Shown: positions 33,769-61,673 of the stretch, in pieces | How positions within the stretch are numbered: the first letter of the stretch is position 1 | Layout of the letters: each line of letters begins with the position of its first letter | Virus record (IMG/VR): IMGVR_UViG_3300021255_002129 | Length of the DNA: 64,000 nucleotides | Strand: one strand, 5' to 3' | Source of the DNA: a virus | Lineage: Duplodnaviria; Heunggongvirae; Uroviricota; Caudoviricetes | Position numbers and translations under genes: made by a program | The notes under the pieces: model-generated | Told to the model about the DNA's origin: nothing | What the model saw: only the letters and a program-made list of their open reading frames with translations | Database searches by the model: none

Positions 33769-33770
33769 AA

Positions 33771-35140: not shown

Positions 35141-35143
35141 AGT

Positions 35144-37380: not shown

Positions 37381-37919
37381 TAAAATTCCACCTCGTCTCC
37401 ATCGATAATTGAATTAATTGCTGCCTCGATTGCCGCTTTCATTTCACTAGTAGTAGGATAATTTGATAAATCAACAGTTTGTGTTCCTAATTTTTCCCAT
37501 TGAGTTGTATATATATATTCATCATATAAATTACTTGTTTCTCCACTATTATTAGGTACTAAATATACAGTAGTTGTACTTATATCTAAAACAGGTAACG
37601 TTTCTACAACAGCAATAGCAAATTTAGGGATAACACTAATCATATTATCTACTTCTGCTTTTGTATATCTGTCATCAATTTCTTCTCTTAATTCAGTATC
37701 ATCATATTCAACTGAGTCCCCTTTTGGACCTTTTAATATAGGAGAAGTATATACATTTCCATTAGTTAAAGTTATTATTAATTCATACTCCGCATTCATT
37801 GTGATTGATGCAATACCTACACCATCTTCACCTTTAGGACCAGCGACACCTAAGTTAGCAAGAGTTAAACCTTTAATTTTATTTCCTGTTTTTCCATTTA
37901 AATCTGCCATCCTACGCAT
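37380..37919 (-). CDS. hypothetical protein with short collagen-like G-X-Y stretches
   Basis: Contains 'GVAGPKGEDGVG' and 'GPKGDS'. Confidence 0.45.
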   Translation of the reverse strand: MRRMADLNGKTGNKIKGLTLANLGVAGPKGEDGVGIASITMNAEYELIITLTNGNVYTSPILKGPKGDSVEYDDTELREEIDDRYTKAEVDNMISVIPKFAIAVVETLPVLDISTTTVYLVPNNSGETSNLYDEYIYTTQWEKLGTQTVDLSNYPTTSEMKAAIEAAINSIIDGDEVEF

Positions 37920-45860: not shown

Positions 45861-48800
45861 TTTCATTACTCTGCATACCTACCTTTCATAATTTCACAAT
45901 GATAATCAATCAAGGCTTCAACAGGACAAAGTAAATCATCATTATTTGTAAATAGCCATCATTGGTCATTATGCCAAATAAATCTACTATTTGCTTCATC
46001 TATTAATCTTTGTAATATTAAAGCATATTGTCTATCTATTTCTTTATTTAATACTAAATGATAATAATCATCATAAGCTCTATCTAAACTAATAGTATAT
46101 GTTGAACCTAATTTTGACAATTGATCTGGATCTGTGGAAGCAGTCGCCTCATCAGGCCACTGTTCACGAGATTTCATTATATAAACTCCATCTCTATATT
46201 GTCTATCACCTGTTGGTATTAAATCTTCTTCATGATTTAAATTATTTTGAGTTTCATTTTCCTCATCTTTAGTTCCATCAATATATAATGAGCCTGTCCA
46301 TACATCTCCACCAACTTGTTCAATTCATTCTTCGTCTACTATTAATCCACCATCATCATCAATAGGTTGCAATACTCTATCAAATAATAATGTATAACTT
46401 GATGAAGGATGTTCTATATTATCTTGATTAACTGATGCAGTGTATTGTTCTGGTCATTGTTCTTTAGATTTAATGCTATATCATCCAGCAAATTGGTCAA
46501 TAGCTTCTAAATAATCATCTGCAAGAGTATAAACCCCATTTTTAATTAATTGAGATGTATCACTTACATATTTATCTAATATTATATTTGTTTCAATATA
46601 TTTATTATCGGGTAATGTTTCTCTTTCTTGCTCTGCGGCAGTAGCAGGTTCAAGATGGATACCAGCGAAATATAATCCCTCAATAGCAGAGCCCTCCGCA
46701 TCAAGAGCTAAAGTATGTGTTGGTCCAATAACATGTCTTTCAAAATCTGTATCTGCAGACTCTTTAACAAATATTACAGTACCTGGTTCAGCTTCAATTT
46801 TTACTCCATCTAAAGATAACATTATTTGTTGATAATTTGAATATTTTTCAAAATATTTATTCCATATATTTTGATAGATTGAATCATTTGGTTTAAATGC
46901 TCCTCATTTTTGTCCAACTCTTCTATAAAAACTACTAGTTTGAAATACTTTACTAGTATCTTCAGTTTGTTGTAAATTAATATGGTACTCTAAATTAACT
47001 TGAGTATCAACAGGAAAAAATAATGAAGTAATTTCTACGTTCTCACCTTTTAATTCATATATACCTTCTGGATTTATTATAATAGGTTTATTATTAACAT
47101 AAACTAAATAACCTAAGATTGCGGAATCTGGATTTTCTTTATCATCACCAAGATCATCTACTACACAGGGGCCATCTTCACCCTCTTTAATTAGGTATGG
47201 GTCACTTTCAAATTCTAATCTTAAGAAATCTAAATTTTGAATTGCAATTTTATAATTTTCTTTTGCATATTTTTCATATTTCTTTTGAATTAAACTTAAA
47301 GCCTCTGTATTTGCAGGTATTATTTCATTATATTGTCCTACATAATCACTAGCAAATTGTAATAATGTATCATAAGTTCCTAATGGAGAAATATTATATT
47401 TATCATAATTTTTAATTGTTGCCGCATCCACTTCATAAGCAGTTGCTGTAAATGAATATATTCTTCTACCTAATGTTGAATTAGGTGTTAAATTAATATC
47501 CATAATTTTAACAAGTATATTTCCTTCAGTAGCTGACCTGAATAATCTAACTTTATTTGCATATAAGAAATCCATAACTTTTTCTCTGAATTCACGCTCA
47601 TAAGTCCAATCGTTAAAATCATCTATTCTTACATTTTTATCTTTATTAAATTCAATATAATTATCTAGGCTGTCTCTAAACATTTCTTCTTTTGATGTTA
47701 TTAGATGTGATGGATCCATTAAATGAGTTATCGTACCTCCAATAGGAAATTGTCTATATTCAACATAGCCATTTCTTTTAATATATGGATATTTACTTCC
47801 TATTGTATCTGTGCGGGATTCACTTACTGTACGTTTGAACGAACTTACTGATGGATCAAATCTAATATTAAGTTGCCCATCTCCGCCAGTTAAATACATA
47901 TCATCAAATAACATCATGAATGGTTCATCCTCTGCGTGAATTGCGATACCTCTATTTCCAACACTACTTCTTCTTTGTGCTATATATTTATAATACACTC
48001 CACTTTTAATAGTATAGTCATATCAAGTATAATTTAATTTACTATTTTCTTCAAAAGACTCTGTATGAACATCTTCTCATATTGTAAAATTACTTTCACT
48101 TGATGTTCTTCTAATAGTTATATTACCAATAAAAGAATCGTCATCATCTTTGCTTTTAACATTAAGTACAATACAACCATTAATATTATCAAGAGTAGCA
48201 GTTAATGTAGCTTCAAGTTTATCAGCGTTTTCTTGGACTACCATAAATTCATATGTATCTTTTTCAGTATACATATTAGCAGTTTCATATTCAAAAGTAA
48301 AATAATAGCTTTCTCCTTCATTAAAAGCATATTCAAAAGTATAGTTAAATTCATTAATATTAAAATAAATATTTGAATATATTACACCACTATCTGATAA
48401 TAATTGATTATTTATATCGTATAATTTTATTTGATAACTTTTTAATGTATCTGTTTCCGCGGAATCCGCATATGTTAATCTACCAACCACATCTACATTA
48501 TTTAATGACCATAACGTTGTGTCTGCGGAAATATCGAATCCTGAAACACTAAGACTAGGTACACTAATCCCTCTAACTAAACATACTGTTGATCATTCAG
48601 AGAAGTTTGATAAATTTGCAGCAAGCCAGCTATCGATCGCTTGAGGCGTGTTTAAAGATACATCGGCGGCGCCTGCCGCAGTAAATCTAATTTGAACTTT
48701 GTAATATTGATTTATTTGAAAACCTTCTTCAATATCACTAGTTTTTATCTCAATATAATATTTATTATCTGATACTCTTGTTAAATCAGTTTTAATGTCA

Positions 48801-49024
48801 GTTAACATAATTTCACAAGGATATTTGCTTTTATCTAATACAGATAAATTGGTATTTTGATTAACAACTGTTACTTGTGCATTTTTTATATCATTTAAAC
48901 TATTATATAAAGAAATAGAGAAATATACTCTACAAGTATTTTTTTGTATATCACTACTTCCTACTAAAAACGCAGGCATGTAGGTATCCACAACTGGTGG
49001 ATATAAATTAATATTAACTGCCAT
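45861..49024 (-). CDS. very large tail/baseplate structural protein (~1054 aa, Dit-like position) with at least five in-frame TGA
   Basis: Track ORFs 48593..49024, 48077..48490, 46904..47998, 46481..46822 and 45959..46177 all share a frame and are each bounded by TGA. Gaps read without TAA/TAG. An internal repeat 'KSKEQWPEQYTAS'/'KSREQWPDEATAS' is present. Confidence 0.5.
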
Positions 49025-49055: not shown

Positions 49056-49508
49056 TTACTTATTTTCTTCTTTTTTATGAATTACTGATACTATTGGTAA
49101 TACTCTTATATCTTTCATAAAACCATCTATAAAAGTATTTCCGTTTTCTTCTTTATAATGTTTGTATCTAGCTTCTATACATTGAAGATTATAGTCATCA
49201 ATATAACCTAAATCATAACAAAAATAATGATGTTTTTCAGTAATCCAAGCTTTAATATCGTCTTTATCTGACTCTATTAAAACACTAATTGATTTAGCCA
49301 TTTTATCAATTTGTTTATTATGTGATTCTAACGTATCTATCATCTTTTGATGTAATTCTTCTACCGATTGTTGCTTACTTGTTGTTTTTGTTATTCTATT
49401 TTTTGCTCAATCATAAAAATCAACAACACCCTTAATAGCAAATGCTAACATTACAACAAAAATAGCTATATCAGTTAATGAATAATTTTTAAGTAAATCT
49501 AACATTCT
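49056..49508 (-). CDS. N-terminally membrane-anchored protein (150 aa), one TGA; possible lysis-associated protein
   Basis: Strong RBS GGAAGGAGATATAGA, then ATG. TM segment 'IAIFVVMLAFAIKGVV', then 'DFYDW(TGA)AKN...', in frame with track ORF 49056..49343. Confidence 0.45.
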
Positions 49509-49589
49509 ATATCTCCTTCCTATATAATTCTCATAATTCTATCTAATAATATATAAAAGTTACAGAAGAAAGATTAGATAAATTAGACC

Positions 49590-49630
49590 AAAATAAAAAA
49601 GATACTTTGCTTTATAAAGCAAAGTATCTA
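49590..49630 (-). terminator. rho-independent terminator (minus strand)
   Basis: GATACTTTGC...GCAAAGTATC hairpin with a flanking A/T tract. Confidence 0.6.
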
Positions 49631-49648: not shown

Positions 49649-49867
49649 TTAATTATTACTTTCTTCTAATGCTTCTAACCTTTCAATTATATTTTTTAAT
49701 TGTTCAGCAATACTACCATCTCTATCTACATTAATATCTCCAATAGTATCTTGTAAATCTTTACCATTTTTCATATCAACATCTTTAGCATCAACTGAAA
49801 TAGTATAAGTTTCTTCACTAACTGAACCGTCTGGATTTTTTATCTTAACAGTTTTAATTTTATCCAT
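49649..49867 (-). CDS. 72-aa protein consisting of the receptor-binding-protein N-terminal anchor module plus a short coiled coil
   Basis: 'MDKIKTVKIKNPDGSVSEETYTI' matches the N-termini of the 52379..54190 and 54889..57066 products. Confidence 0.4.
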   Translation of the reverse strand: MDKIKTVKIKNPDGSVSEETYTISVDAKDVDMKNGKDLQDTIGDINVDRDGSIAEQLKNIIERLEALEESNN

Positions 49868-49943
49868 AAATTAAACCTCCTTTTACGTCTTTGTTTCTAA
49901 TACTATGTGAAAAAGGATTAATTAAGATGGGTTATTTTTGACC

Positions 49944-49976
49944 AAAATAAAAAAGAGGAGTATTTAGTTACTCCTC
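49944..49976 (-). terminator. rho-independent terminator after the holin gene
   Basis: GAGGAGTA-TTTAGT-TACTCCTC with a flanking A/T tract. Confidence 0.6.
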
Positions 49977-50393
49977 ATCATCTTTAACTTCCCAAGTAAT
50001 GACTTCAGTGTCTGAACTAATATTTGCTAAATCTACAACTCCTTGAATTGCTTTCTTTCCTTGTGCCACAATAGTTGCAGTGACTACACCTAATACTGCA
50101 ACACTTGATAATGTATTAAGTAATTCGCTTGATAATAATATTACTCCAAATGCACTTGTAATCATTTTATTAATAAATGGTAACATAGTAAATGCAACAG
50201 CAACAAACACTGAGCATACATAAAACGCTAATATTTTTGTAATACCTTTAATCATTTTCTTTCCATTAAAAGTTTCTTTTCCTGACCAAATATTAATTAA
50301 TGTTCCAGTTACAATATTAACAATAGCAAGAATAGCTAATGCAATACCTAACCATCCCATTATTTGTAAAGTTTTTAAAATTGCTTCTACCAT
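49968..50393 (-). CDS. holin (multi-TM)
   Basis: 141 aa with three or four predicted TM helices and a charged C-terminus, located next to the endolysin. Confidence 0.6.
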   Translation of the reverse strand: MVEAILKTLQIMGWLGIALAILAIVNIVTGTLINIWSGKETFNGKKMIKGITKILAFYVCSVFVAVAFTMLPFINKMITSAFGVILLSSELLNTLSSVAVLGVVTATIVAQGKKAIQGVVDLANISSDTEVITWEVKDDEE

Positions 50394-50767
50394 AATATCA
50401 TGCGGCGGTCGTCGGTCTTAGAACTTTTAGTCTTGCTCTTACGCATGCCTGATCGGCTCCCGCGCCTCCTTTCCTTATTGTTTCCGCACTCTCCACCTTT
50501 AGTGCAATTATAACCAAAAAGTGGAATATTACTTTTGTAATAACCTATTAAATATTTTTCTAACCTAACAGCTTGCTCTTGTGTCAATCCACTAGATATT
50601 ACAATGTGTTTAATGTTTTTTCAGCCATATTTTTTAATAGGTTTATAGACTAACTGGCCTTTATAGCCTCGCCCATTTTTCCATCTAGACTCAGGTTTTT
50701 GGCCAGTTAATCCAATATATCGTTTCCCATTAGGGAAAATTAATTCATATACACAATAATTATGCAT
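50387..50767 (-). CDS. GIY-YIG homing-endonuclease-like protein inserted between endolysin and holin; at least one in-frame TGA
   Basis: 'VYELIFPNGKRYIGLTGQKPESRWKNGRGY' is a GIY-YIG motif and '...LEKYLIGYYKS...FGYNCTKGG' is I-TevI-like. The ATG overlaps the endolysin TAA, and the TAG stop overlaps the holin start. The C-terminal basic tail is encoded by an anomalously GC-rich patch (~50400-50480). Confidence 0.55.
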
Positions 50768-51945
50768 TATAGTTTTTGTAGACTTGATGCTGGGTAGAAT
50801 CCTGTAGTTCCAGATCCATTTCCAACTTGATATGGATAAGGTCTTCCATCCCAAATTCTTAAAATTTGTCTAGTCCATCCAATACCATATGCAGTATTAC
50901 TTCCACCATAAGAACTTCCATTACCAGTTCCTATAATCTTAACTTTATCTCCTACTTGTAATCCAGTTGGTTGTGGTGTAGGTTGTGGAGCAGGTTCATC
51001 ATATTTTTTAATTGAACTTTGATCCATCCATCCTAAGTCTCCTGTTGTATTATATGGATGCGCGCTTCCTGGGTTTTTTCTTGTAATATAAGTAACTTTA
51101 TTACTTACACTTCCTGCAGGACTAGCTGCATTAGAATTAACATATAGAGGTCCATTGATTATTACATGGTCTCCAATATTAAATGCATCACTTGGACCTG
51201 GAGTAGGTGTAGGGGCAGGACTTCCGCCATCTATTAATTTTTGAACGTCATCTGGTAAATATATAAAACATCTAAAGTAATAATTACTTGAACATCCCCA
51301 TCTACCATTATTATTTGTTCTAATTTGGTTCCAGAATATTGTGCTTGAGCCCCATCCAGATTCAGATGTATAAACTTGATTATTACTATCTACTCTTTCA
51401 ACGATTGCTACATGACCAGCGCCTGAGTTTCCCCAGCACATAATTGCTCCACGTTTTGGGGTTGAACCAGTTTTAAGCCCCGCTGTCTCCGCTCTTTCTT
51501 TAAAATTAATAGCATTGCAATTTAAAGTTTTATAAGTACATCCGCTTGTATCTCTTGCAATATTTATAATTTCATTAAATCTACCACTTGCATAACCTAC
51601 GCAGTTTGCTAATGCATTTGCTGGTGCATATAATGGATTACCTTTGATACAAGTATTCCATCCACCAGAACCTGTAACTATAAAGTTTTTGTTATTAGCA
51701 GGTCTGCTAATTCTCATTATAAAACCCGCAGCACCTATACCTTCAGGTTCATCTGCGTTAAGGTTTTCAATTTCATAATGCTCATCCGCATCATTTAATT
51801 CTTCAGGTGTGTCTGTGTTAAATAAATATTGAACATTTTCGTCATCAATATCATCTCTTAAAAAAGCTTTAGCAACCATAGTTTGCACTTCTGTAGGTGC
51901 CATTTCCACTCTTTTAATTCTTTCTTCACTTGATAATTGTGCCAT
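50767..51945 (-). CDS. endolysin: CHAP-domain peptidoglycan hydrolase with two C-terminal SH3b-like cell-wall-binding domains
   Basis: CHAP catalytic Cys 'ANCVGYASGRF' and His 'GAGHVAIVERVD'. A Pro/Thr linker 'PAPTPTPGP' precedes two SH3b-like repeats ('GDHVIINGPLYV...', 'LQVGDKVKIIGTGNG...'). Confidence 0.8.
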   Translation of the reverse strand: MAQLSSEERIKRVEMAPTEVQTMVAKAFLRDDIDDENVQYLFNTDTPEELNDADEHYEIENLNADEPEGIGAAGFIMRISRPANNKNFIVTGSGGWNTCIKGNPLYAPANALANCVGYASGRFNEIINIARDTSGCTYKTLNCNAINFKERAETAGLKTGSTPKRGAIMCWGNSGAGHVAIVERVDSNNQVYTSESGWGSSTIFWNQIRTNNNGRWGCSSNYYFRCFIYLPDDVQKLIDGGSPAPTPTPGPSDAFNIGDHVIINGPLYVNSNAASPAGSVSNKVTYITRKNPGSAHPYNTTGDLGWMDQSSIKKYDEPAPQPTPQPTGLQVGDKVKIIGTGNGSSYGGSNTAYGIGWTRQILRIWDGRPYPYQVGNGSGTTGFYPASSLQKL

Positions 51946-52029
51946 AGATTTTTACCTCCTTTATATAATTTGTAAAAAATAAAAACAACAATTAAAATAT
52001 TATCTTTCTCTTAATTATTTTTGAAATTT

Positions 52030-52060
52030 TAATTAAAATTATTATATATTTTAGCCCAAA
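52030..52060 (-). promoter_or_regulatory. candidate late promoter element (minus strand GGGCTAAAATATATAAT)
   Basis: One of three near-identical TTTTGGGYWAAAWATAWATAAT elements found just downstream of minus-strand terminators. Confidence 0.3.
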
Positions 52061-52378
52061 AAAAAAGAAGCAAAAACAATTTTACTTTTCCTTTTATTAT
52101 AGTAATTCTAGAATCTAACTTATTTTGTTCTTCTTTCGCATATTTTATCTTAATAATAAGTTTTTCTGTAGATATAGCTGTAGTATTAACTCTATCAAAT
52201 GTTTTTTAAGTCCTTTACATTGTTTTTTAATCATCAAATTTATGTCTAAAAGTTTTTCTTTCATATTTTGTGACATTCTTTACTCTTTCTTTTTTTATTA
52301 ACTATTATACAAAATATTTATTAGCAATAGTTGGTAAAGTTTTAATAGTTTTTATTTTGCTTCTTTTTTAAATATTAA

Positions 52379-54190
52379 TTAGGATGTTGTTTTTTGTATT
52401 GTAACACTTGCCAAGATATTACCCGATTCTATACTTTCAGCAGACGGAAATCGTTTTCTATATGAAAAAATAGGCACATTCGATGAATCTATACTTATAT
52501 TAGTGTTAACATCATTTGTTAAAGCATTATTTCCTACTTGTGCATATAAATCGTATACGTCTATAGATGAGTCATTACTAAAAGTAATAGTTCTTTTTTT
52601 AACCATTACAAAAGTCCACGTTCTAATATATGAATTGTATTTGTCAATTACTTCAATTGTGTTTGAATTGCGAATTTTTATTGTTGCATCAAAAACTATT
52701 CCATTTCTGATTCTTATTATTGGCGAATTTAAAGTAGTAGAAAGTATAAAACTACATAAATAATAATACGAATTTAAATCAAACGTTTGTCCACTATAAT
52801 ATGGTGTTATTTCAGAATTATTATTTAACTGTAAACAATATGCTGGATCATCATAATTAACTAAATTATTAGTATTATTAAATTTATTATTGGACAAATG
52901 AATATTATCATTAGCTATCATATATCTATAATCACTAGCATGATTAAATCTTATAAAAGCACAATCACCTTTTAAAGCTGAATTAAACTTACTATTTGTA
53001 ATTGAAATATATGCTTGTTTTCTTTCTCCAATATAAATTGCTGAAGTTTCACTATTTTCACTAAATGCATCATAATAATACACACAACAATTTGTTAAAA
53101 AGTAGTTTCCATTATCATTATCAAATTCAAAACCTCTAGCATAAGTATCAGCATAACAATTTGAAAGAACAGCACTCCCTTGTGTAAACAAAAAACCAAT
53201 AGTCGTATTTTTTAAATCATCTGTAGATTGGCTATTATATAAAGCTGTACAATGAATATCATCAAACGTTTGAAAACCACCTGTCATTTTAATACCAATC
53301 TGACATCCATCAATTCTTATATGAACTATTTCATTATCATAAGAGTCAATCTTAATAGCTGTTCCTTGATTACTATCTTTTCTAAAAAAATCACAATATG
53401 ATACTTTTACATCACCACTTGTATAACGTTGGTTAAGAGATAAATACAACCCAAAATCTTCTATATTTTTAAATACTGTTTTTGCTAATTGCACTAGTTG
53501 TCTACCACTGTCTATTACCATACCTTTTGATACATTAGAACAATCAATAATACCGCCTTCAACAAAAATAACATTATTAGCCTTTGTTCTACTATAAGTT
53601 CCTTTAGTATCATCTAAGCCAATTTCAATCAATGTCTCTAGTTTTTCATTAGAAATATTTTTAATTAGTGCATTTTCATCTAGTTTAAGATTTACACCAT
53701 AATTATTAGCTTGATAAACTATAATTTTATTTGTTATTCCATAGTCTCCTTTTGGGAAATAAATTGTCTTTAGAGGGTTCTCATCAATAGCTTTTTGAAT
53801 GGCTTGTATATCATCATGTATTCCATCGCCATAAGCACCATATTGTTTAATATTAATAAAATCTTCAGCAATCAATGTAGCATATTTATCATTGCTTAAT
53901 ACTTCTTGATAATCAGTTTCACTTTTTTCATCAGTTATCTTATATGTAGCTCCACCACCATCATTAATCTCATAATATCCAAGCGTTACTACCATATCTC
54001 CAACTTTTAATTTCGTATCAGCTTTCATGTCTGCAACACTGTTATAATAATAAGGTTTTTTATTCAACTTTAATTGAACAGACTCACCATCACTAGTCGA
54101 TACATTCTGAGCTTCTGCTCCAATAGGAATATAATCAGTAAAAGTGCCATCTTGTTTTTTTATTTTAATTTTCTTAAATAAATCTGCCAT
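52379..54190 (-). CDS. tailspike/receptor-binding protein with pectate-lyase-superfamily (right-handed beta-helix) depolymerase domain
   Basis: 'IKQYGAYGDGIHDDIQAIQKAID' is the hallmark motif of PF12708. The N-terminal anchor 'MADLFKKIKIKKQDGTFTDYIPI' is shared with the other fibre proteins. Confidence 0.7.
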   Translation of the reverse strand: MADLFKKIKIKKQDGTFTDYIPIGAEAQNVSTSDGESVQLKLNKKPYYYNSVADMKADTKLKVGDMVVTLGYYEINDGGGATYKITDEKSETDYQEVLSNDKYATLIAEDFINIKQYGAYGDGIHDDIQAIQKAIDENPLKTIYFPKGDYGITNKIIVYQANNYGVNLKLDENALIKNISNEKLETLIEIGLDDTKGTYSRTKANNVIFVEGGIIDCSNVSKGMVIDSGRQLVQLAKTVFKNIEDFGLYLSLNQRYTSGDVKVSYCDFFRKDSNQGTAIKIDSYDNEIVHIRIDGCQIGIKMTGGFQTFDDIHCTALYNSQSTDDLKNTTIGFLFTQGSAVLSNCYADTYARGFEFDNDNGNYFLTNCCVYYYDAFSENSETSAIYIGERKQAYISITNSKFNSALKGDCAFIRFNHASDYRYMIANDNIHLSNNKFNNTNNLVNYDDPAYCLQLNNNSEITPYYSGQTFDLNSYYYLCSFILSTTLNSPIIRIRNGIVFDATIKIRNSNTIEVIDKYNSYIRTWTFVMVKKRTITFSNDSSIDVYDLYAQVGNNALTNDVNTNISIDSSNVPIFSYRKRFPSAESIESGNILASVTIQKTTS

Positions 54191-54327
54191 AAAGCGCGTC
54201 TCCTTTCATTCTTTTAAATTAAAACTAATGTATAATAAAATTATATATACTATAATTCATTCTTTCTAATTCTATTTAAATATTGATTAAAATAAATGAG
54301 TTGTTTTTGTCCAACCAATGTTTAAAC

Positions 54328-54370
54328 AAAATAAAAAAGACTGCGGCAATCACAGTCTTTTTTATTTTTA
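54328..54370. terminator. bidirectional-looking rho-independent terminator
   Basis: AAGACTG-CGGCAATCA-CAGTCTT with an A-tract 5' and a T-tract 3'. Confidence 0.5.
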
Positions 54371-54392
54371 TATACTTTATTTCAATAGTAAA

Positions 54393-54870
54393 ATTATCTC
54401 TTGCTAAATGCCCATCTTTCTATAACTATATTTACAGCCTCATATAGCGACTTTCTAACACATCTAAAGGAATTTATATTAGCTATATTAGAAAGTGTTG
54501 TAAAAGGGCTATGATTATCTATTGTACTATTCAAATGGTCTAAAACATCATTACAATTTTTATCTACAACAGAACTATCTGCAATTAAGTAGTTCTTATT
54601 ATCATAAAATACATGATATGCTCTAACTTTTATTTTACTTTTAGTTTTTTCTGGATTAGATAATCTAAAAGCTTGTCCACCTTGTGGGTAGCAGCAACTA
54701 TTATATTTCCCTGTACTAAATCATTTACATATTCAAGTCCAGTTTCTAAATCTAAATAGTATGTTCCATTATCTTCTTTATGAATTTTAAGCTTCAGTCG
54801 GAATTATTATTTTATCTCCATTTGATGAAAACAACTTGTCTGTTGAATTAAATAATTTAATCTTAAATTA
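54393..54870 (-). pseudogene. disrupted small gene downstream of the M14 fibre gene (possible fibre-assembly chaperone remnant or -1 frameshift site)
   Basis: Two protein-like minus-strand frames abut at an A6 run (~54640-54660) and there is no clean start (ATG-GAG-ATA-AAA-TAA-TAA). The downstream frame ends with '...VNIVIERWAFSKR*'. Confidence 0.3.
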
Positions 54871-54888
54871 AATAGTTTAAATATAAAA

Positions 54889-57066
54889 TTAGTCAATAAC
54901 ACTAACTTCATTAAATTTATAATCATTCTCACAAATATACTTATTCTTTATAATAACATTTTCAAGTAATGAAACAACTGTTGTTATTGCAATTTTCCTC
55001 ATGTCATCTCTACTTCCTGTATAATCATCACCAGACGTTGTAGCAAGTTCAATTAAAAAACCATGCAAATTCATAACACCACTATACCATTCATCAAAAG
55101 AACCATGAAACTCACCAGTTTTCTTTAAAGTAAAGCAATTTTGGTTATTTGTATATTCTGTTTTTAACCAATCAAAATTAGAACGCATTTGTGAATTTAA
55201 GGCTTTAATGGTAGAATAACCAATATCCAAATCTGATTTAAAGCCACTTGCAAAATATCCAATAACACCACCAGCAGTCAAAGAAGCTGTTGAATGTCTA
55301 TTAATAACTAAGAATATTTTATCTTTGTTGTTACGAATATAGTCACATAATATTTGAGTTTCAATTTCACTTTCAGGATATTGTCCTGAAGAATTGTATT
55401 CATTATCACTATATACCCAATTTGCATTGAAATTTCTATTAATATTCACATTATTTCCATTATTTCTTATATGGTGTTCATAACCATATGGGTTTATTGT
55501 TGGTATTACTTCAAATATGACATTATCAAATAAATTCTTTAAAGCATCATTTGTACCATAATTGTCCAATATGTCTTTAAACATCATATAGTCATCTAAT
55601 GCAATAGTTTCTTCATTACCATGCATTGAACCAACATATAGAATTGTTAATTTTTGTTTTGGTATCTGTTGTAATGCTATATTTTCATTGTGTGAATTAA
55701 TAGTGTATTTTCTTATTTCTAGGTTATCTGTAGTAGTCCCAAGAACTGTTTTAGTAATAAATGATGAATAAGTATTTAGTAACCCATCCCATAAATCATA
55801 TAATGTTGATAATTTATTTGTAGTATAATATGGAACAATTGCCTGATTAAAATTATATTTAGAAAATTGAGAGCAAATTTCTATAATTTTACTTATATTA
55901 TTATTTTCAGGATTAATTATATATTTATCATAGTATAAATTTAATGTCATATGATTTAATGCATTATTTACTCTTTTGGCATTAAAATTTTCAGATGATG
56001 AACCATCATCGATTGAAAATCTAATATAACAATCTTGATTAATGATGAATTTATCTATTCCATATGTTCTATAATCTATTAAATACGATGAATCTTTATC
56101 ACTAAAAGTACAAATATTAAATTGAACATTGCCATCACTACTAATTGATGAACCTTTTAACACTTTAATATAATCAATTGTTCTAAAACGTGATGGGAAT
56201 GTATTATTAATTCCTGTTGATGAAATTTGACCCTGTTCAAAATTTGAATATGATAAATTATGTTTATTATACAAATTATCATTAATATTTTGTATTCTGT
56301 TCTCTATGTCTGTATTTTTTGATTCTTCTAATAAATTTAATGTTATATGAGATAAAGCTGAGTCTACTCTTTCTTCATTAAATGTTTCAGATGAGCTACC
56401 ATCATTAATTGAAAATCTAATATAACAGTTTTGAGAAACAATGTAAATGTTTGTTGAAAATGTTCTATACTCTAACAAAGAGCTTGTATTTTTATCACTA
56501 AAAGTACAAATATTAAATTGAACATTGCCATCTGTTTCAATAGAAGTTCCTTTAAGCACTTTAATATAATCTTTAGTTCTAAATCGTGATGGAAATGTTG
56601 TGTTTATTCCAGAAGAACTTATTTGACCTTGTTCAAATTTTGAATATGATAAATTATACTTATTATACGAATTATCAATAATATTTTGTATTTTTTTATC
56701 GTCTTCATTTAATCTTTCATTAATTTCTTCATAATCGCTACTTGCTTGATAAAGTCCACCATCTACCCAAGTTGTACCATTGTAATAATACCAATGACCA
56801 TCAATAGTTAAAACATAAACTCTTGTTGTATCAGTCATTTTACTTATTGAATTTGCTACTAATGGGCTTCCACTTGCTAAGCTATTTATTTGATTTTGTA
56901 AACTATTGATACTAGAATTAACATTTATAACATTAGCTTTATTATTTAATTCATTAGTCAATGTATTTCCATTAACATCGACATGGTCACTATCAACAGC
57001 TAATGGAATACTATCACTATATGAACCATCTTTATTTTCTAATTTAACATATTTTAATTTATCCAT
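54889..57066 (-). CDS. tail fibre with internal duplicated domain and C-terminal M14 zinc-carboxypeptidase-like domain
   Basis: Shared N-terminal anchor 'MDKLKYVKLENKDGSYSDSIPL'. Two ~120-aa repeats are ~70% identical ('NLSYSKFEQGQISSSGINTTFPSRFRT...' and 'NLSYSNFEQGQISSTGINNTFPSRFRT...'). M14 motifs 'SMHGNEET' (HxxE), 'NPYG', 'NRNF' and 'INRHS' are present. Confidence 0.7.
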   Translation of the reverse strand: MDKLKYVKLENKDGSYSDSIPLAVDSDHVDVNGNTLTNELNNKANVINVNSSINSLQNQINSLASGSPLVANSISKMTDTTRVYVLTIDGHWYYYNGTTWVDGGLYQASSDYEEINERLNEDDKKIQNIIDNSYNKYNLSYSKFEQGQISSSGINTTFPSRFRTKDYIKVLKGTSIETDGNVQFNICTFSDKNTSSLLEYRTFSTNIYIVSQNCYIRFSINDGSSSETFNEERVDSALSHITLNLLEESKNTDIENRIQNINDNLYNKHNLSYSNFEQGQISSTGINNTFPSRFRTIDYIKVLKGSSISSDGNVQFNICTFSDKDSSYLIDYRTYGIDKFIINQDCYIRFSIDDGSSSENFNAKRVNNALNHMTLNLYYDKYIINPENNNISKIIEICSQFSKYNFNQAIVPYYTTNKLSTLYDLWDGLLNTYSSFITKTVLGTTTDNLEIRKYTINSHNENIALQQIPKQKLTILYVGSMHGNEETIALDDYMMFKDILDNYGTNDALKNLFDNVIFEVIPTINPYGYEHHIRNNGNNVNINRNFNANWVYSDNEYNSSGQYPESEIETQILCDYIRNNKDKIFLVINRHSTASLTAGGVIGYFASGFKSDLDIGYSTIKALNSQMRSNFDWLKTEYTNNQNCFTLKKTGEFHGSFDEWYSGVMNLHGFLIELATTSGDDYTGSRDDMRKIAITTVVSLLENVIIKNKYICENDYKFNEVSVID

Positions 57067-57121: not shown

Positions 57122-57163
57122 TATCAAAAGAAGGGACAAATAATTATCTTATTTTGTCCCTTC
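57122..57163 (-). terminator. rho-independent terminator (minus strand)
   Basis: Perfect 11-bp stem GAAGGGACAAA/TTTGTCCCTTC flanked by an A/T tract. Confidence 0.6.
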
Positions 57164-57406
57164 TTCATTAATACTTGCGGCAACCGACTCTTCGGTTTTA
57201 GAATTAGATTCTTCATTTGTTTGGCTAGCTTTCAATTCTTTTTTAGCCATTTCTGCACGTTCTATATCTTCTTTTTTACAAAATTCAAAATATTGTTGTT
57301 CAATTTCTGTCATTATACTTTTCATAATAAAATATATTGCATCTATTGATATTCCACTTTCATTTAAATCCTGTACAATTTTTTGTTCTAAATCTCTAAA
57401 TATCAT
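57149..57406 (-). CDS. hypothetical protein (85 aa)
   Basis: RBS AAAGGAGTAAAAAG, then ATG. True TAA stop. Confidence 0.45.
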   Translation of the reverse strand: MIFRDLEQKIVQDLNESGISIDAIYFIMKSIMTEIEQQYFEFCKKEDIERAEMAKKELKASQTNEESNSKTEESVAASINEEGTK

Positions 57407-57425: not shown

Positions 57426-60400
57426 CTAATAATCTTTAACCGCAACAAGAATTCCATTTGTAAAACGTAATCCAATAACACTATTATCTGTTTTTCTAAT
57501 AATAATTTCATTTGTTGCTTGGCCAGTCTCTCCAGAAGAAGTATGTAAATTTCCAATATTATACAATCCATTTCCATTCATTTGAATAGCTCCTCTAACA
57601 TTTAAACCAGATACTTTTGGATGATTAGTTTCTATTCCCATTTCAAGATAATATTCTCCCTTATGAATACTAATACTTCCACCTGTAATAGTAGCTCCTC
57701 CAACAGTACCTCCATTAATACTAGAACCACTAATATTTCCACTAAACTGTCCATTACTAGCATGAAGAGTTCCATTACTTTCAATTCTAAAACGAGTACC
57801 ATAATTAATTAAATCAGCAGTCCCTTGTGACCATCCACCATTATCTATTCTAATATTTTTAAAGTGGGCGTTTCCTGCTGCATTAATCTCTCAATTTGGT
57901 CCTTTAAGAGTTCCATTTGCAGAGATATGTGTATTTCCATTATTGCTTTGTAATTCAGTTCCATTAATAGTTCATCCACCTATTTGACCGCTAGACGAAT
58001 ATAAAGCCCCATCTTTATCAACAGCAAATTTATTGTTAATAGCTAAATTTAAGTTATCTCTATTAGTTCCATTAATAGTTCTACTAAATAATCCATTATT
58101 ACTTGAAAATCTAATATTTGCAGAACTACTTTTTGTTCCCGTATAAATTGAATCATCATCAATATTAAACCCAGCTAAAGTACCTCCGCCTTTTGCAGTT
58201 AGATGTCCATCTTTATCAACTTTAAAATTACCATTTCCTCATTCAATTAATGGCGTAGTTAAATCAATTAACATTCCTTGATTATTTTTATTTCCAACGC
58301 CATAATTTAAAGGTTTTCCACTATCATCATAATTTTTTCAATAAGCGCTACTATATAACATAGCTTTTTCTGCGGCGGGGTCTAAAATAATTTGACCTGG
58401 GCCATGTTTACCAAATATTGCAGATCCATCTTCTGCATTTAAGAACATTGTACGTTCACCAAAATTATATCCAAACATACCAATATCTTTTTTATTTTTA
58501 CCAGCTTCTTTAACACTACCCATTAACATACCAGTAAAACTATTATCTGCTTCTTTTTGACCTGCACCAACTTGTGGAGCTAATATAACTCCATTACCAT
58601 TTTTATCTATGCTAACACTATTACCATCTCATCCGTTAATAGCTGCATTTCCATATTTATTTAATAATAAATGAATTGGTATATGAATTCTAGCAACTTC
58701 ATTTGCACTCTTATCTATTATGATACATTCAAGAGCATTAGTTACACACTCACCATCAAAATCATCTATTGGTTTATATGATTTTGTATTCCTTGCTGCG
58801 GGAATATCACCTCTTGAATATTCTTTTAAGAATTCTTTATTTATCCAACTTCTATTAACTGAGTCATATATTCTTCCTCGAATATTCCAATCATAATTAA
58901 CTCCATTAGTTTTAGTTAATACGCTGATATCTTCAGTGATATTATTTATTACTTTCGTTACTTTTAATTCAAAAGGCTTTGAATTATCATATTGCGGCTT
59001 GCGGCCATCTGCACTATAAGTCGCATATCTAAATCCTGTGTCTTCAACTAATGAAACTCCATATCCGCTTACCGCAGTTGCAGTTATAACAGGCATTGTA
59101 GCATAATATTCAATATTATCATAAGTAATTATAACTTTAACAATATTAGCAGGTGAATTAACACCTTTATATCCGCTATAACTAAATGTTCCATTATCTG
59201 TAACACCTAAACTAGTTTCATCATAAACATTGCTTGTGTATTTATTTTGTAAAATAGTTCATTTAACATTTGCAGTTTTTCCTTCAGTAGTATTACCACT
59301 TGAACTACCATCAAATATTTTTTCTCCACTATGCCATAATTGAGCATTAAACCATTTATTATTTTGTCTTGGAGTATAATTAATATTTCCATTTAATATC
59401 ATTGGATATCCAAAACCAGTGTTTTGAGTATTAGGAACTATTTTACATACGAATTCAGTTCCATTAGTTCCTGGTTCTCCTTCTTTAACAAAAGTAAAAT
59501 CAGTTTCCGCAACTAAATTCATATCTTTATAATCAACCGTTAATTTAATTTTATTATTGTTCTTTTTAATATCATACTTATCTCTAATTGTATATTGAAG
59601 ATACATTTCTCCTTCAACTGTTTTATAATCATCTTGAACAATCCAATCATAGCTATCAGGAACTTTTAGCATCGTATCTTCAAGAGGAACTGTTCAACTA
59701 AACTTACATTTATCTATAATATCATCTGCTAAAGCATTACCTAAATTATCATAAACTGTAAAACTTAATGGTAATATAACTTGAGGATTATCTAAACTAT
59801 CACTTACAGGTGATATACCAGCCTCATCGTATTTAAAAGTTTGTGTTCCATTATTTATAATTAAAGTATAAGCATCTTTTTTATCTAAATCATTTCTAAT
59901 AACAATAGAAGCAGTTCCAATATATATTCCATTGTGGTAAACTGAACATTTATAAGTACTAAAATTAGTTATTGTATTCACTTGTAAATGATGTATTTTT
60001 CTACCTTCTACTCTCATTATTTTATCATATCTATTTATAATTGTCAAGTATTGATTTAATTGTCCTTGACTTGCTGCGGCCATAGCTCTTTCTGCAGCAA
60101 TGTCAGCTTTAAGTTGCGTATAACCGACAACTGCATTGTTATATTCTGTATTATCTTCAGTGGTTTCCGTCAAAGCATAGAAATTATTATTATTATCTAT
60201 TTCAACTCATTGATAAGTATATTCATTACTAGTTGACTCTTGACCATTAATTTTACAAGTTAATGTAGGATTTCCAATATCATAATAGAATTGTTCGCCC
60301 TTATCGCTTTCAATACTAATCTCATAATTAGATGAATAATTAGTAACAGTAATAACCCTACTTAATTGAATATTATTATAAATAACAACACATTTATATT

Positions 60401-61559: not shown

Positions 61560-61599
61560 TCCTTGTCATCTCCTTTTCTCTCTAAATTTCTTATTTTTT

Positions 61600-61640
61600 C
61601 TTCAATATTCTATTAGAAATATTATTTATATTTACCCAAA
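61600..61640 (-). promoter_or_regulatory. candidate late promoter element (minus strand GGGTAAATATAAATAAT) directly after the tape-measure terminator
   Basis: TATAAATA-like element in a conserved context that recurs at 52030-52060 and 38345-38370. Confidence 0.3.
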
Positions 61641-61673
61641 ATAAAAAAGAAGGTAACCTTCCGATTACCTTCT
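61638..61673 (-). terminator. rho-independent terminator overlapping the tape-measure stop codon
   Basis: GAAGGTAA...TTACCTTC hairpin with a flanking A/T tract. Confidence 0.5.

What the first reader, a model, noticed from the sequence alone, without database searches (positions are those of the whole stretch)
49649..57066. Modular receptor-binding proteins share a ~25-aa N-terminal anchor: M-(A)D-K/L-hydrophobic-K-x-V/I-K-I/L-K/E-N-K/P-DG-S/T...
'MADLFKKIKIKKQDGTFTDYIPI' (tailspike with pectate-lyase domain), 'MDKLKYVKLENKDGSYSDSIPL' (fibre with M14 domain) and 'MDKIKTVKIKNPDGSVSEETYTI' (72-aa stub ending in a short coiled coil) begin with the same module. This is the classic signature of interchangeable RBPs docking to a common baseplate adaptor. 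The 72-aa gene may be a truncated spare RBP or an anchor-competing regulator. Two enzymatic RBPs (a depolymerase and a peptidase) imply a dual or branched receptor specificity.
Basis: seen in the sequence. Interest (0 to 1): 0.65.

Follow-up and report, generated by a model that had tools for sequence, protein, structure and literature searches.

The report
Swappable phage tail-fibre anchors, headless stub
Three tail-fibre genes of an uncultured phage that reads TGA as tryptophan start with related ~45-residue modules onto which evolution has grafted hundreds of different enzyme heads, and the 72-residue gene is a conserved headless version, an ordinary principle of phage biology seen here in a new sequence family.

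Summary
The three N-termini are exactly as quoted. They are homologous over about 45 residues, not 25, and this is far beyond compositional chance (z 6.8-11.9; 0 of 5000 shuffles).

The module has no Pfam, PHROG, PDB or GenBank-phage match. It nevertheless heads at least 1,202 distinct protein clusters in metagenomes, always at residues 1-46. Their bodies include pectate-lyase spikes, metallo-beta-lactamase, GDSL esterases, glycoside hydrolases and peptidases.

The anchors fall into three discrete classes, A, B and C. Identity is 72-81% within a class and 33-42% between classes. All 12 related genomes I examined carry at least one gene of each class. DNA homology between relatives breaks exactly at the anchor/body boundary, which indicates cassette exchange.

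The 72-aa gene is a conserved headless form made of anchor, neck and a short coil. It shows dN/dS of 0.13-0.35 and has its own ribosome-binding site and terminator. Stubs occur in all three classes, almost always where no full-length gene of that class exists.

My reading is three parallel docking classes with a slot-filling stub, not one common adaptor. Physical docking is untested. Truncated 69-aa RBPs are already known in Klebsiella phages, so this is a variant of a known kind.

The parts
54889..57066 (-). Class-A RBP, 725 aa. Layout: anchor (aa 1-45), coil-like linker, two copies of a ~132-aa repeated domain, then a C-terminal M14 zinc-carboxypeptidase head.
   Evidence: ORF. Pfam PF00246 1.9e-23 over aa 423-682. 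HxxE, NRNF and H motifs align with carboxypeptidase O. Anchor HMM E=2e-21.
56929..57066 (-). Class-A anchor module (aa 1-46: MDKLKYVKLENKDGSYSDSIPLAVDSDHVDVNGNTLTNELNNK).
   Evidence: Alignments. blastn homology between L001 and L002 ends about 133 nt into the gene, roughly aa 44.
55021..55800 (-). Peptidase_M14 domain (aa 423-682) of the class-A RBP.
55935..56630 (-). Internal duplication in the class-A fibre: two 300-nt copies, 76% identical, 396 nt apart.
   Evidence: the repeat finder family D1. The repeated peptide is visible in the translation.
52379..54190 (-). Class-B RBP, 603 aa. Layout: anchor (aa 1-29, up to 45), 'KKPYYYNSVADMK' junction/cap domain, then a pectate-lyase-like beta-helix tailspike.
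   Evidence: Pfam PF12708 3.8e-11. PDB sequence hits to beta-helix proteins. AF2 is confident only for aa ~45-190.
54056..54190 (-). Class-B anchor module (aa 1-45: MADLFKKIKIKKQDGTFTDYIPIGAEAQNV...).
   Evidence: Homology to L002 ends about 87 nt into the gene, roughly aa 29.
49649..49867 (-). Class-C headless stub, 72 aa. Layout: anchor (beta-hairpin aa 6-22), neck with an NxDxDG loop (aa 43-52), then a two-heptad helix (aa 53-70). Stop codon is TAA.
   Evidence: There are 68 homologues, nearly all 70-72 aa. AF2 pLDDT 78. dN/dS 0.13-0.31.
49600..49629 (-). Intrinsic terminator hairpin directly after the stub gene.
   Evidence: Terminator scan and sequence.
49955..49976 (-). Intrinsic terminator hairpin at the end of the holin gene, upstream of the stub. 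Both terminators are followed by the motif TTTTTATTTTGGTC.
   Evidence: families D2, D4, D15.
50767..51945 (-). CHAP endolysin, 392 aa. It lies inside the RBP cassette region.
   Evidence: Pfam PF05257 6e-14.
50387..50767 (-). GIY-YIG homing-endonuclease-like gene, 126 aa with one in-frame TGA, wedged between endolysin and holin.
   Evidence: Code-4 translation. Pfam PF01541 7.7e-7.
49968..50393 (-). Holin, 141 aa.
   Evidence: Pfam PF05105, 23 bits against a cut-off of 22.2.
54433..54861 (-). Decayed remnant, with stops and a frameshift, of a 160-aa gene that is intact in relative L007. It lies between the class-A and class-B RBP genes and looks like a recombination scar.
   Evidence: tblastn 44% identity over 144 aa, E=4e-35, with in-frame stops.
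57149..57406 (-). Conserved 85-aa helical, acidic-tailed gene. It forms the upstream border of the RBP region in the relatives whose loci reach that far upstream. Function unknown.
   Evidence: No Pfam hit.
49056..49505 (-). Conserved 149-aa membrane protein with one in-frame TGA. It forms the downstream border of the RBP/lysis region in most relatives that cover it (not evident in L015 or L018).
   Evidence: Weak ATP-synt_B-like hit. It resembles the recoded TM protein described for Agate phages.

Best explanation
The three genes are modular receptor-binding proteins (RBPs) of a roughly 136-kb uncultured phage that reads TGA as tryptophan.

Each RBP begins with a ~45-residue module. It consists of a Lys-rich beta-hairpin (K-x-phi-K-phi-K-x-x-DG-S/T...), followed by a 'phi-D-A-x-N-phi-D' segment and a short helix. 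I infer that this module fixes the trimeric protein to the tail tip.

The module exists in three paralogous classes, A, B and C. These are conserved separately across related genomes, which suggests three non-equivalent docking positions rather than one shared site.

Behind the anchor, and sometimes behind an optional neck made of a DxDxDG-like loop plus a short coiled coil, the body is freely exchanged. The shown mechanism is homologous recombination that uses the anchor-coding DNA as the 5' arm and conserved downstream sequence as the 3' arm. This has produced hundreds of different heads.

In this window class A carries an M14 carboxypeptidase fibre and class B carries a pectate-lyase-type tailspike. 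Class C is represented only by a 72-aa headless protein (anchor + neck + two-heptad coil). I infer that this stub fills the class-C position so that the tail-tip complex stays complete. As a by-product it keeps a landing pad for acquiring a new head.

Shown: the homology, the class structure, the mosaic breakpoints, the diversity of heads, and purifying selection on stubs. Inferred: attachment to the tail, trimer formation, and the slot-filling role.
For: - **Homology beyond chance.**
- **Breadth of the family.** The anchor-only profile finds 1,202 clusters (629 at E<=1e-10), always at residues 1-46, with lengths of 60-991 aa.
- **Diversity of bodies.** 78 long members carry Pect-lyase (25), Phage_fiber_rpt (15), metallo-beta-lactamase (9), Beta_helix (7), NosD, GDSL esterases, GH43/39/16, metallophosphatase, S9 peptidase, alpha/beta-hydrolases and CBM4_9.
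- **Class structure.** 258 anchors split into A 25, B 89 and C 144. Identity is 72-81% within a class and 33-42% between classes.
- **Every genome has all classes.** All 12 non-redundant related genomes have at least one gene of each class, despite permuted gene order and three different lysis cassettes.
- **One body type on any anchor.** The same tailspike junction (KKPYYYNSVADMK...) is mounted on A (L007, L008), B (window) and C (P0054, L009, L014).
- **Mosaic breakpoints.** blastn of L001 against L002 shows homology ending at about aa 44 of A and aa 29 of B, then resuming before the next conserved gene.
- **The stub as a gene.** It has an RBS and is bracketed by two terminators. There are 68 homologues, almost all 70-72 aa. 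dN/dS is 0.13-0.35.
- **Stubs across classes.** Stubs exist with A, B and C anchors and share the C-terminal 'IAEQLKNIIERLEALEE'-type helix.
- **Stub versus full-length gene.** Relative L014 has 95% identical flanks, a full-length class-C RBP and no stub. L007 has a full-length class-C RBP followed by a decayed stub that lacks a start codon and the DxDxDG loop.
- **Structure prediction.** The AF2 stub model shows a hairpin at aa 6-22 and a helix at aa 53-70, with pLDDT 78.
Against: - **No partner identified.** No docking partner was found. The neighbouring large tail proteins have no informative Pfam or PHROG hits.
- **No structural or family match.** The anchor has no PDB, Pfam or Foldseek match. 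'Anchor' therefore rests on analogy with other phages.
- **An exception to slot-filling.** L009 has an intact class-B stub next to a full-length gene with a diverged B anchor.
- **Extra copies.** L015 has two class-A genes.
- **The triad is not universal.** More distant lineages show other combinations and shorter anchor variants (L020, L021).
- **Incomplete view of the genome.** Only 64 kb of about 136 kb is visible here. A full-length class-C gene elsewhere in this genome is not excluded. In the 143.8-kb IMG/VR relative, all matches lie in one locus.
- **Weak model of the anchor in context.** In the AF2 monomer of the tailspike the anchor is low-confidence.
Confidence: 0.6

Rival explanations
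1. The 72-aa gene is only a relic of an RBP that lost its head ('retrograde evolution', as proposed for the 69-aa second RBP of Klebsiella phage KpV767). It would have no function of its own.
For: Truncated RBPs that retain only the conserved N-terminus are documented (PMC6872550). The stub is collinear with the first ~60 residues of full-length class-C RBPs. A decaying copy exists in L007.
Against: About 60 variants keep a length of 70-72 aa with no frameshifts. dN/dS is 0.13-0.35 at dS up to 1.5. The gene has its own RBS and terminator. Stubs of all three classes share a specific C-terminal helix that full-length RBPs do not need. The only decayed copy sits next to a full-length gene of the same class.
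Confidence: 0.12
2. The stub is a regulator that competes with full-length RBPs for docking sites and so tunes how many heads are displayed.
For: It carries a complete anchor and would bind wherever that anchor binds. In L009 a class-B stub sits beside a full-length B-like RBP.
Against: In the window and in 7 other stub instances, the visible locus has no full-length gene of the same class. The classes are only 33-42% identical and are conserved separately, so cross-class competition is not expected.
Confidence: 0.1
3. The A, B and C modules co-assemble into one heterotrimeric stalk with one chain of each class. Every fibre would then carry up to three different heads, and a stub would be the headless third chain.
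For: Every close relative keeps at least one gene of each of exactly three classes, and a stub appears when a class has no head. The three modules are paralogous and the same length.
Against: Within one genome the necks and coils are not in register: window B has no neck or coil, A has a different coil, and C has neck plus coil. Some genomes have four anchor genes or two of one class. From general knowledge, pectate-lyase tailspikes and coiled-coil fibres are homotrimers.
Confidence: 0.07
4. The N-terminal module is not a virion anchor. It would instead be a self-contained trimerisation or folding nucleus, or shaft repeat, that happens to sit first.
For: A more distant protein, P0132, carries two tandem copies of the module, like a shaft repeat. 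There are weak sub-threshold hits to the repeat family CFSR.
Against: In 1,202 clusters the best match is always at residues 1-46. The module is the most conserved part of otherwise unrelated proteins, and recombination breakpoints fall right after it. That is the pattern of attachment domains in characterised phages (PMC6872550, PMC8262889).
Confidence: 0.08
5. The resemblance is compositional (Lys/Asp-rich, AT-rich genome) or chance.
For: The genome is 28% G+C, and the motif is rich in K, I, D and N.
Against: 0 of 5000 composition-preserving shuffles reach the observed scores. Intermediates and chimeras link the three types. Profile hits reach 88 bits.
Confidence: 0.01

Closest known systems
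Klebsiella podophage RBP systems (KP32- and KP34-like: anchor domain, T4gp10-like branch, 'conserved peptide'), including truncated RBPs such as the 69-aa second RBP of KpV767 (Latka et al. 2019, PMC6872550; experimental follow-up PMC13352976)
   Same: Both have a conserved N-terminal attachment sequence on RBPs with highly variable depolymerase bodies. Both have more than one RBP per virion and broken synteny at RBP genes. In both, some genomes carry very short proteins (69 aa there, 72 aa here) that retain only the conserved N-terminus.
   Different: Here the three N-termini are homologous to one another; the Klebsiella anchor and conserved peptide are not. No T4gp10-like branching domain was detected. 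Any of the three classes can be the stub, so no RBP body can be the obligatory branch platform. The stubs form a widespread family under purifying selection with their own conserved C-terminal coil, rather than single-genome truncations. The host and phage type are unrelated: a low-GC phage reading TGA as Trp, whose relatives have a 2,600-2,800-aa tape measure.
K1-5/K1E/SP6-type dual-tailspike phages, with an adaptor protein and 7-11-residue conserved N-terminal peptides on the tailspikes (as summarised in PMC6872550)
   Same: Short conserved N-terminal sequences mount alternative enzymatic tailspikes on a fixed tail structure. Heads are swapped between phages.
   Different: Those peptides are much shorter and not paralogous. 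A dedicated adaptor protein is known there and none is identified here. Those phages have two sites, against three classes here.
P22-like tailspikes with a conserved head-binding domain and mosaic receptor-binding bodies (e.g. phage epsilon34, PMC2629481)
   Same: There is a sharp mosaic boundary between a conserved N-terminal particle-binding domain and a divergent beta-helix body. Exchange is by recombination.
   Different: The P22 domain is a dome of about 110 residues with a solved structure and occurs once per phage. Here the module is about 45 residues, has no structural match, and occurs as three paralogous classes per genome.
Ackermannviridae (CBA120-type) four-tailspike branched complex (review PMC11721090)
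   Same: Several enzymatic tailspikes are displayed together, giving multivalent host recognition.
   Different: Assembly there depends on large N-terminal tandem domains of TSP2 and TSP4 that act as the platform. Here all anchors are short and equivalent in size, and each is dispensable down to a stub.
TGA-recoded 'Agate' gut phages (Borges et al., bioRxiv 10.1101/2021.08.26.457843)
   Same: Both show TGA read as Trp in structural and lysis genes, a genome of about 127-154 kb, an endonuclease gene carrying in-frame TGA, and a recoded membrane protein with ATP-synthase-B-like annotation in the lysis region. That paper's endonuclease is a group I intron endonuclease inserted in an early gene; the window's is a GIY-YIG gene in the lysis cassette.
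   Different: Membership was not tested, since no terminase phylogeny was done. 'Tail fiber' does not occur in that preprint's main text, so it apparently does not treat the RBP anchors or stubs.

Membership tests
Modular phage RBPs with a conserved N-terminal attachment module | The same N-terminal sequence on proteins with unrelated C-terminal bodies | tested here: met
   1,202 clusters at 50% identity carry the module at residues 1-46. 24 different Pfam families occur among 78 bodies.
Modular phage RBPs with a conserved N-terminal attachment module | A mosaic (recombination) boundary directly after the conserved module | tested here: met
   blastn of L001 against L002, L005, L006 and L014: homology ends about 87-133 nt into the RBP genes and resumes at the next conserved gene.
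Modular phage RBPs with a conserved N-terminal attachment module | A receptor-binding or depolymerising head | tested here: met
   PF12708 and PF00246 are above their gathering scores. The M14 zinc-ligand motifs are conserved. Enzymatic activity itself was not tested.
Modular phage RBPs with a conserved N-terminal attachment module | Physical attachment of the N-terminus to a tail or baseplate protein | not testable with these tools
   No multimer prediction is available. There is no structural homologue, and the neighbours are unannotated.
Anchor-branch RBP systems (G7C / KP32 type) | A T4gp10-like branching domain in a primary RBP | tested here: inconclusive
   No such domain was found by Pfam in the window RBPs, the relatives' RBPs or the neighbours. 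Profile-profile sensitivity (HHpred) was not available. Independently, every class can be a ~70-aa stub, which argues against a body-borne branch point.
Pect-lyase_RHGA_epim (PF12708) tailspikes | Score above the Pfam gathering threshold | tested here: met
   43.6 bits against 27, over aa 111-160. The GAxGDGxxDD motif aligns with beta-helix proteins in the PDB. The AF2 beta-helix is confident only to about aa 190.
Peptidase_M14 | Gathering score, plus the HxxE...H zinc ligands and the NR substrate-binding motif | tested here: met
   83.9 bits against 21.6. 'mHgnE', 'NRNF' and 'nrHS' align with carboxypeptidase O. The catalytic Glu270 equivalent ('FLIELATT') was read by eye only.
CFSR collagen-flanked surface repeat (PF19079) | Score above the gathering threshold | tested here: not met
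   14.1 bits against 27 for the stub. Only 3 of 38 stubs hit at E<=1.
EF-hand calcium-binding loop (neck motif D-x-D-x-D-G-x-I-x-E-x-L) | Pfam threshold and a canonical acidic residue at loop position 12 | tested here: not met
   10 of 38 stubs give only sub-threshold EF-hand hits (best E 0.006). Position 12 is Leu, and Glu is at position 10 (sequence). This is a DxDxDG-like loop at most.
Agate clade of stop-codon-recoded phages | TGA reassigned to Trp in late genes | tested here: met
   In-frame TGA occurs in many long ORFs. In orthologue alignments, TGA pairs with TGG 48 times and with a Gly codon (GGA) 3 times.
Agate clade of stop-codon-recoded phages | Placement in the clade by terminase phylogeny or ANI | not tested
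   Only a resemblance of genome size and lysis-region content to the description.

The most novel reading that the evidence does not exclude
The three anchor classes may not mark three separate docking sites. They could instead be the three chains of one heterotrimeric stalk, so that a single fibre carries up to three different enzymatic heads and the ~70-aa stubs are headless chains needed to complete the trimer. That would be an RBP architecture not described before. It would explain why close relatives always keep at least one gene of each class.
Probability: 0.07. Interest if true: 0.8.

Novelty: new variant of a known kind. Interest (0 to 1): 0.42.

Why it matters
Conserved N-terminal anchors with exchangeable heads are the basis of host-range evolution and of current plug-and-play phage engineering. 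This locus adds a very large anchor family with no prior annotation, drawn from uncultured phages that read TGA as Trp. At least 1,200 distinct bodies sit on one ~45-residue module. The family has a simple grammar: three anchor classes, an optional neck, then a head.

It also gives comparative evidence that headless, anchor-only proteins are maintained by selection. If the slot-filling role is correct, it would show that a tail tip needs every docking position occupied. It would also offer a natural minimal scaffold for mounting foreign enzymes on a virion.

On the practical side, the family is a ready index of candidate glycan-, ester- and peptide-cleaving enzymes aimed at bacterial surfaces. 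The source record names suggest a rumen or herbivore-gut origin, but this was not verified.

Tried and rejected
- **Nucleotide search of GenBank phages.** Megablast of the 9-kb region gave no match.
- **Protein search of GenBank phages with the stub.** tblastn gave no match at E<=1.
- **Protein search with the two full RBPs.** Hits begin at residue 41 (spike) or 64 (fibre), so the anchor is absent from 50,697 GenBank phage records.
- **Pfam and PHROGs on the N-termini.** Only sub-threshold noise appeared: CFSR, DUF5016 and phrog_32868.
- **PDB profile search with the anchor/stub alignment.** Nothing better than E=0.095, from EF-hand-like loop matches.
- **Foldseek of the AF2 stub model against the PDB.** The best hit was E=1.8 (monocin side fibre), which is not significant.
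- **AF2 of the full tailspike.** Mean pLDDT was 51.8, with the anchor and C-terminal half unreliable, so no fold search was run on it.
- **Pfam and PHROGs on the flanking large tail proteins, to find a docking partner.** Only 'tail protein' for the 685-aa protein.
- **Host assignment.** The one hit in GTDB genomes is a 73-kb phage-like contig binned with an 'uncultured Bacilli' MAG, which is not decisive.
- **L016.** It looked like a phage-host junction (FeoB, RmuC upstream). It is probably a chimeric assembly, because it is 99.99% identical to L017 up to a break inside an RBP gene, with a GC jump.
- **TGA as Gly (code 25).** Considered and rejected.
- **Upstream in-frame extensions of the A and B genes under code 4.** Rejected. 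The extensions overlap the RBS, and relatives start at the same Met or at TTG.
- **Promoter scan.** It found fewer sites than shuffled controls (59 against a mean of 67), so it was not used.
- **GTDB scan with alignment A3.** It failed for lack of a conserved stretch. A2 was used instead.

Full report
**1. The observation**

The three ORFs lie on the minus strand exactly where stated, and they start with the quoted peptides.
- Pfam places a pectate-lyase-like domain in the 603-aa protein and a Peptidase_M14 domain in the 725-aa protein, both above the gathering score.
- Aligned, the three N-termini resemble each other over about 45 residues rather than 25.
- Local alignment scores are 53-77. 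Composition-preserving shuffles give 21-26 +/- 4-5, and none of 5000 shuffles reaches the observed value for any pair (z = 6.8-11.9).
- The refutation criterion 'compositional bias only' therefore fails.
- An HMM of the module finds exactly these three genes among all ATG-started ORFs of at least 40 aa in the 64-kb window, read with TGA as a sense codon.

**2. Genetic code and context**

Standard-code ORF maps shred the neighbouring genes.
- If TGA is read through, long ORFs appear: 1399 codons with 10 TGA at 57426-61625, 1052 aa with 8 TGA at 45866-49024, 685 aa with 6 TGA at 43809-45866, and a tape-measure C-terminus.
- In orthologue alignments between related contigs, TGA pairs with TGG 48 times and with a Gly codon (GGA) only 3 times. 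TGA therefore encodes Trp and not Gly.
- No tRNA gene lies in the window.

The minus-strand gene order is:
- tape measure (2,600-2,800 aa in relatives, PF10145)
- 1377-aa protein
- 85-aa protein
- class-A RBP (M14)
- a pseudogene remnant
- class-B RBP (tailspike)
- CHAP endolysin
- GIY-YIG endonuclease
- holin
- 72-aa stub
- 149-aa membrane protein
- 1052-, 685-, 234- and 424-aa structural proteins

The three genes of the finding contain no in-frame TGA, so their boundaries are unaffected. The starts are supported by RBS sequences and by relatives.

The recoding and the content of the lysis region resemble the TGA-recoded 'Agate' phages of Borges et al.. I did not test membership of that clade.

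**3. The stub is a conserved gene**

- A search of 5.8 billion proteins returned 68 homologues at 63-100% identity, nearly all 70-72 aa, on contigs up to 137 kb.
- The gene has an AAAGGAGG ribosome-binding site and a TAA stop. It lies between two intrinsic terminators, at 49976-49955 and 49629-49600.
- Pairwise dN/dS among four class-C stubs is 0.13-0.31, at dS up to 1.5. For two class-A stubs it is 0.35.
- AlphaFold2 with 38 homologues gives pLDDT 78: a beta-hairpin at aa 6-10 and 16-22 around the invariant DG turn, short helices, and a C-terminal helix at aa 53-70.
- The hydrophobic positions I53, L57, I60, L64 and L67 follow a heptad pattern.

**4. Three anchor classes**

Relatives were fetched around the stub and around other anchor-bearing proteins (L001-L021). 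L001 is the same sequence as the window. They were scanned with the anchor HMM under code 4.

The three classes recur with these N-termini:
- A: 'MDKLKY[VI]KLE..DGSYS.SIPL'
- B: 'MADLIKKIKIKKQDGTFTDYIPIG'
- C: 'MDKIKTVKIKN.DGSVSEETYTIS'

Among 258 anchors from public proteins, identity over 26 residues is 72-81% within a class and 33-42% between classes.

Twelve non-redundant genomes of the window's clade all have at least one gene of each class:

| Genome | Class A | Class B | Class C |
|---|---|---|---|
| window / L001 | 725 aa (M14) | 603 aa | stub |
| L002 | 691 aa | 666 aa | stub |
| L005 | stub (71 aa) | 616 aa | stub |
| L006 | 366 aa | 517 aa | stub |
| L007 | 516 aa | 626 aa | 693 aa plus a decayed stub |
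| L008 | 657 aa | 415 aa | 692 aa |
| L009 | 655 aa (metallo-beta-lactamase) | stub (70 aa) plus a diverged 502-aa B-like gene | 685 aa |
| L011 | stub | 748 aa | 657 aa |
| L014 | 680 aa | 866 aa | 639 aa, no stub |
| L015 | two genes | probable, N-terminus cut off at the locus edge | 682 aa |
| L018 | 606 aa | 564 aa | stub |
| L019 | 691 aa (TTG start) | 568 aa | stub |

- Gene order is permuted, and the lysis cassette is of three different kinds: CHAP, Amidase_2 and GH25.
- More distant lineages (L020, L021) show other combinations and a shorter anchor variant. The triad is therefore a property of this clade and not of the whole family.

**5. Interchangeable bodies**

- An exhaustive HMMER search with the anchor-only profile, against 1.84 billion cluster representatives at 50% identity, gave 1,202 hits at E<=1e-3 and 629 at E<=1e-10. 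The best match always lies at residues 1-46, and lengths are 60-991 aa. Because the representatives differ by more than 50%, these are largely different bodies on one anchor.
- Pfam on 78 long members found Pect-lyase (25), Phage_fiber_rpt (15), metallo-beta-lactamase (9), Beta_helix (7), NosD (4), GDSL esterases, GH43, GH39, GH16, metallophosphatase, S9 peptidase, alpha/beta-hydrolases, EEP and CBM4_9.
- The same tailspike junction 'KKPYYYNSVADMK...' follows A anchors (L007, L008), B anchors (window) and C anchors (P0054, L009, L014).
- Chimeras exist in which a B anchor is joined to the stub's neck and coil (P0063, P0064, P0069).
- At the DNA level, homology of L001 to L002 holds through the 85-aa gene and the first ~133 nt of the A gene, vanishes, returns for the upstream region and the first ~87 nt of the B gene, vanishes again, and returns before the endolysin. 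This is the signature of cassette replacement with the anchor as one recombination arm.
- From residue ~41 the window tailspike matches proteins of SPO1-like Bacillus phages and other phages. No GenBank phage matches residues 1-40.

**6. What the stub does**

- Stubs occur with all three anchor classes. They share a neck ('IGxIxVDxDGSIAEQL') and a C-terminal helix ('KNIIERLEALEE'-like).
- I saw nine intact stub genes. Eight are the only gene of their class in the visible locus.
- L014 has flanks 95% identical to the window. It has a full-length class-C RBP elsewhere in the cassette, and nothing in the stub position.
- L007 has a full-length class-C RBP followed by a stub copy that has lost its start codon and the DxDxDG loop.
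- Together with purifying selection, this fits a headless protein that is needed only when no other protein supplies that anchor class. In other words, it behaves as a slot-filler.
- Because each class is reduced to ~70 aa in some genome, none of the RBP bodies can be an obligatory platform for the others. This disfavours a branched architecture of the G7C/KP32 type.
- The one counter-example is L009, which has a class-B stub beside a diverged B-like full-length gene. That leaves room for a competitor role.

**7. What could not be shown**

- The anchor has no match in Pfam, PHROGs, PDB sequences or the PDB by fold.
- The flanking tail proteins are essentially unannotated.
- The tailspike AF2 model is reliable only for aa ~45-190.
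- Only 64 of about 136 kb of this genome is visible. In the 143.8-kb IMG/VR relative, all pattern matches confirmed by tblastn lie in a single locus.

**8. Comparison with known systems**

- Conserved N-terminal anchors with variable heads are well established: T7/K1F gp17, P22-like tailspikes, K1-5/SP6, G7C, the Klebsiella phages and Ackermannviridae (PMC6872550, PMC8262889, PMC2629481, PMC11721090).
- Latka et al. already describe truncated RBPs. One is a 69-aa second RBP in KpV767 that keeps only the 29-residue conserved peptide, which they interpret as retrograde evolution.
- The present system works like these but differs in four ways:
  - The three attachment modules are paralogues of one another.
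  - No T4gp10-like domain is detectable.
  - Any class may be headless.
  - The headless form is a widespread family shaped by selection, with its own conserved C-terminus.
- I therefore rate it a new variant of a known kind, in a new sequence family.

**9. Verdict**

Modular, interchangeable RBPs on a shared anchor are supported. A 'common adaptor', a 'spare RBP' and a 'competing regulator' are not supported by the comparative data.
- The best-supported reading is three parallel docking classes with a selected, headless slot-filler.
- Interest is moderate. The principle is textbook, but the size of the family, its clean grammar and the evidence for functional headless anchors are useful and testable.

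Noticed in passing
whole window, e.g. 57426-61625(-), 45866-49024(-), 43809-45866(-), 61665-63998(-), 32824-36762(+): TGA is a sense codon (Trp). Long ORFs carry 3-10 in-frame TGA codons, while most plus-strand genes between 1 and 32 kb have none and a minority carry 1-3. In orthologue alignments TGA pairs with TGG 48 times and with a Gly codon (GGA) 3 times. No tRNA, and so no suppressor, is found in the window.
   Followed up: yes
49649-57066 compared with the flanks 43809-49024 and 57426-63998: The RBP/lysis cassette of this genome (both RBPs, endolysin, holin, stub) has 0 TGA against 18 TGG. The flanking tail genes have 25 TGA against 27 TGG (Fisher p = 1e-4). Relatives' RBPs in the same slots carry 6-11 TGA. 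This suggests a recent import of the cassette from a standard-code relative, or selection for suppressor-independent expression.
   Followed up: partly
50387-50767(-): A GIY-YIG homing-endonuclease-like gene with one in-frame TGA is wedged between endolysin and holin and overlaps both ends. It is present only in relatives that have the CHAP lysis cassette. It could promote co-conversion of the adjacent RBP cassettes.
   Followed up: partly
49056-49505(-): A 149-aa single-pass membrane protein with an in-frame TGA gives a weak ATP-synthase-B-like hit. It matches the description of the preferentially recoded TM protein in the lysis region of Agate phages (Borges et al.).
   Followed up: partly
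54433-54861(-): A pseudogene remnant with stops and a frameshift, derived from a 160-aa gene that is intact in relative L007 (15816-16298). It occupies the 700-bp 'intergenic' gap between the two RBP genes.
   Followed up: yes
55935-56234 and 56331-56630: A 300-nt internal duplication (76% identity, 396 nt apart) gives two copies of a ~132-aa domain in the shaft of the M14 fibre.
   Followed up: partly
32824-36256(+): A cluster of four glycosyltransferase genes (Stealth CR2/CR4, two GT2, one GT1-type) uses TGA far more than TGG for Trp (20 against 4). It is followed by a RuvC-like 168-aa gene. It might glycosylate the host surface or the virion.
   Followed up: partly
36805-37380(-) and 37380-37919(-): A DUF285 (BspA-type leucine-rich repeat) protein and a collagen-like (GPKGEDG / GPKGDS) protein lie at the end of the structural block. 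They may be further adhesins. Neither carries the anchor module.
   Followed up: partly
49711-49740(-), stub aa 43-52; necks of many relatives: The neck motif 'IGDI(D/N)VDxDGSIAEQL' is a DxDxDG-type loop. It gives sub-threshold EF-hand and dockerin hits in 10 of 38 stubs, which could indicate a Ca2+ site. It can be absent, single or duplicated (L009 class-A RBP).
   Followed up: partly
49581-49599, 49935-49953; weaker copies at 52038-52070 and 54318-54340: A conserved post-terminator motif, TTTTTATTTTGGTC, follows the holin and stub genes, with weaker copies after the two RBP genes. The homologous intergenic element also borders RBP cassettes in L007 and L009. It may be a cassette boundary or 3' recombination arm.
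   Followed up: partly
L007 12185-12397: A decayed class-C stub (no start codon, DG turn and DxDxDG loop degraded, 74% nt identity) lies immediately downstream of a full-length class-C RBP.
   Followed up: yes
L016 1-4465: A 40-kb metagenome contig joins FeoB, RmuC and MBL genes (35% GC) to this phage inside a class-B RBP gene. It is 99.99% identical to L017 beyond the break. It is most likely a chimeric assembly and not an integration site.
   Followed up: partly
protein P0132 (231 aa) and locus L020: More distant relatives carry two tandem copies of the anchor module (P0132). L020 carries a 68-aa stub-like protein with a divergent anchor, plus RBPs with a shortened anchor ('MKIKEIKIVNQDESTEVADIG'). 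The module family extends beyond the A/B/C triad.
   Followed up: partly
39746-40579(-): A 277-aa protein has a Gly/Trp-rich hydrophobic N-terminal segment (GGDGWWIIILFLFAFGGWGGNGGWFG) and Cys-rich ends. It sits within the structural block and has no annotation.
   Followed up: no
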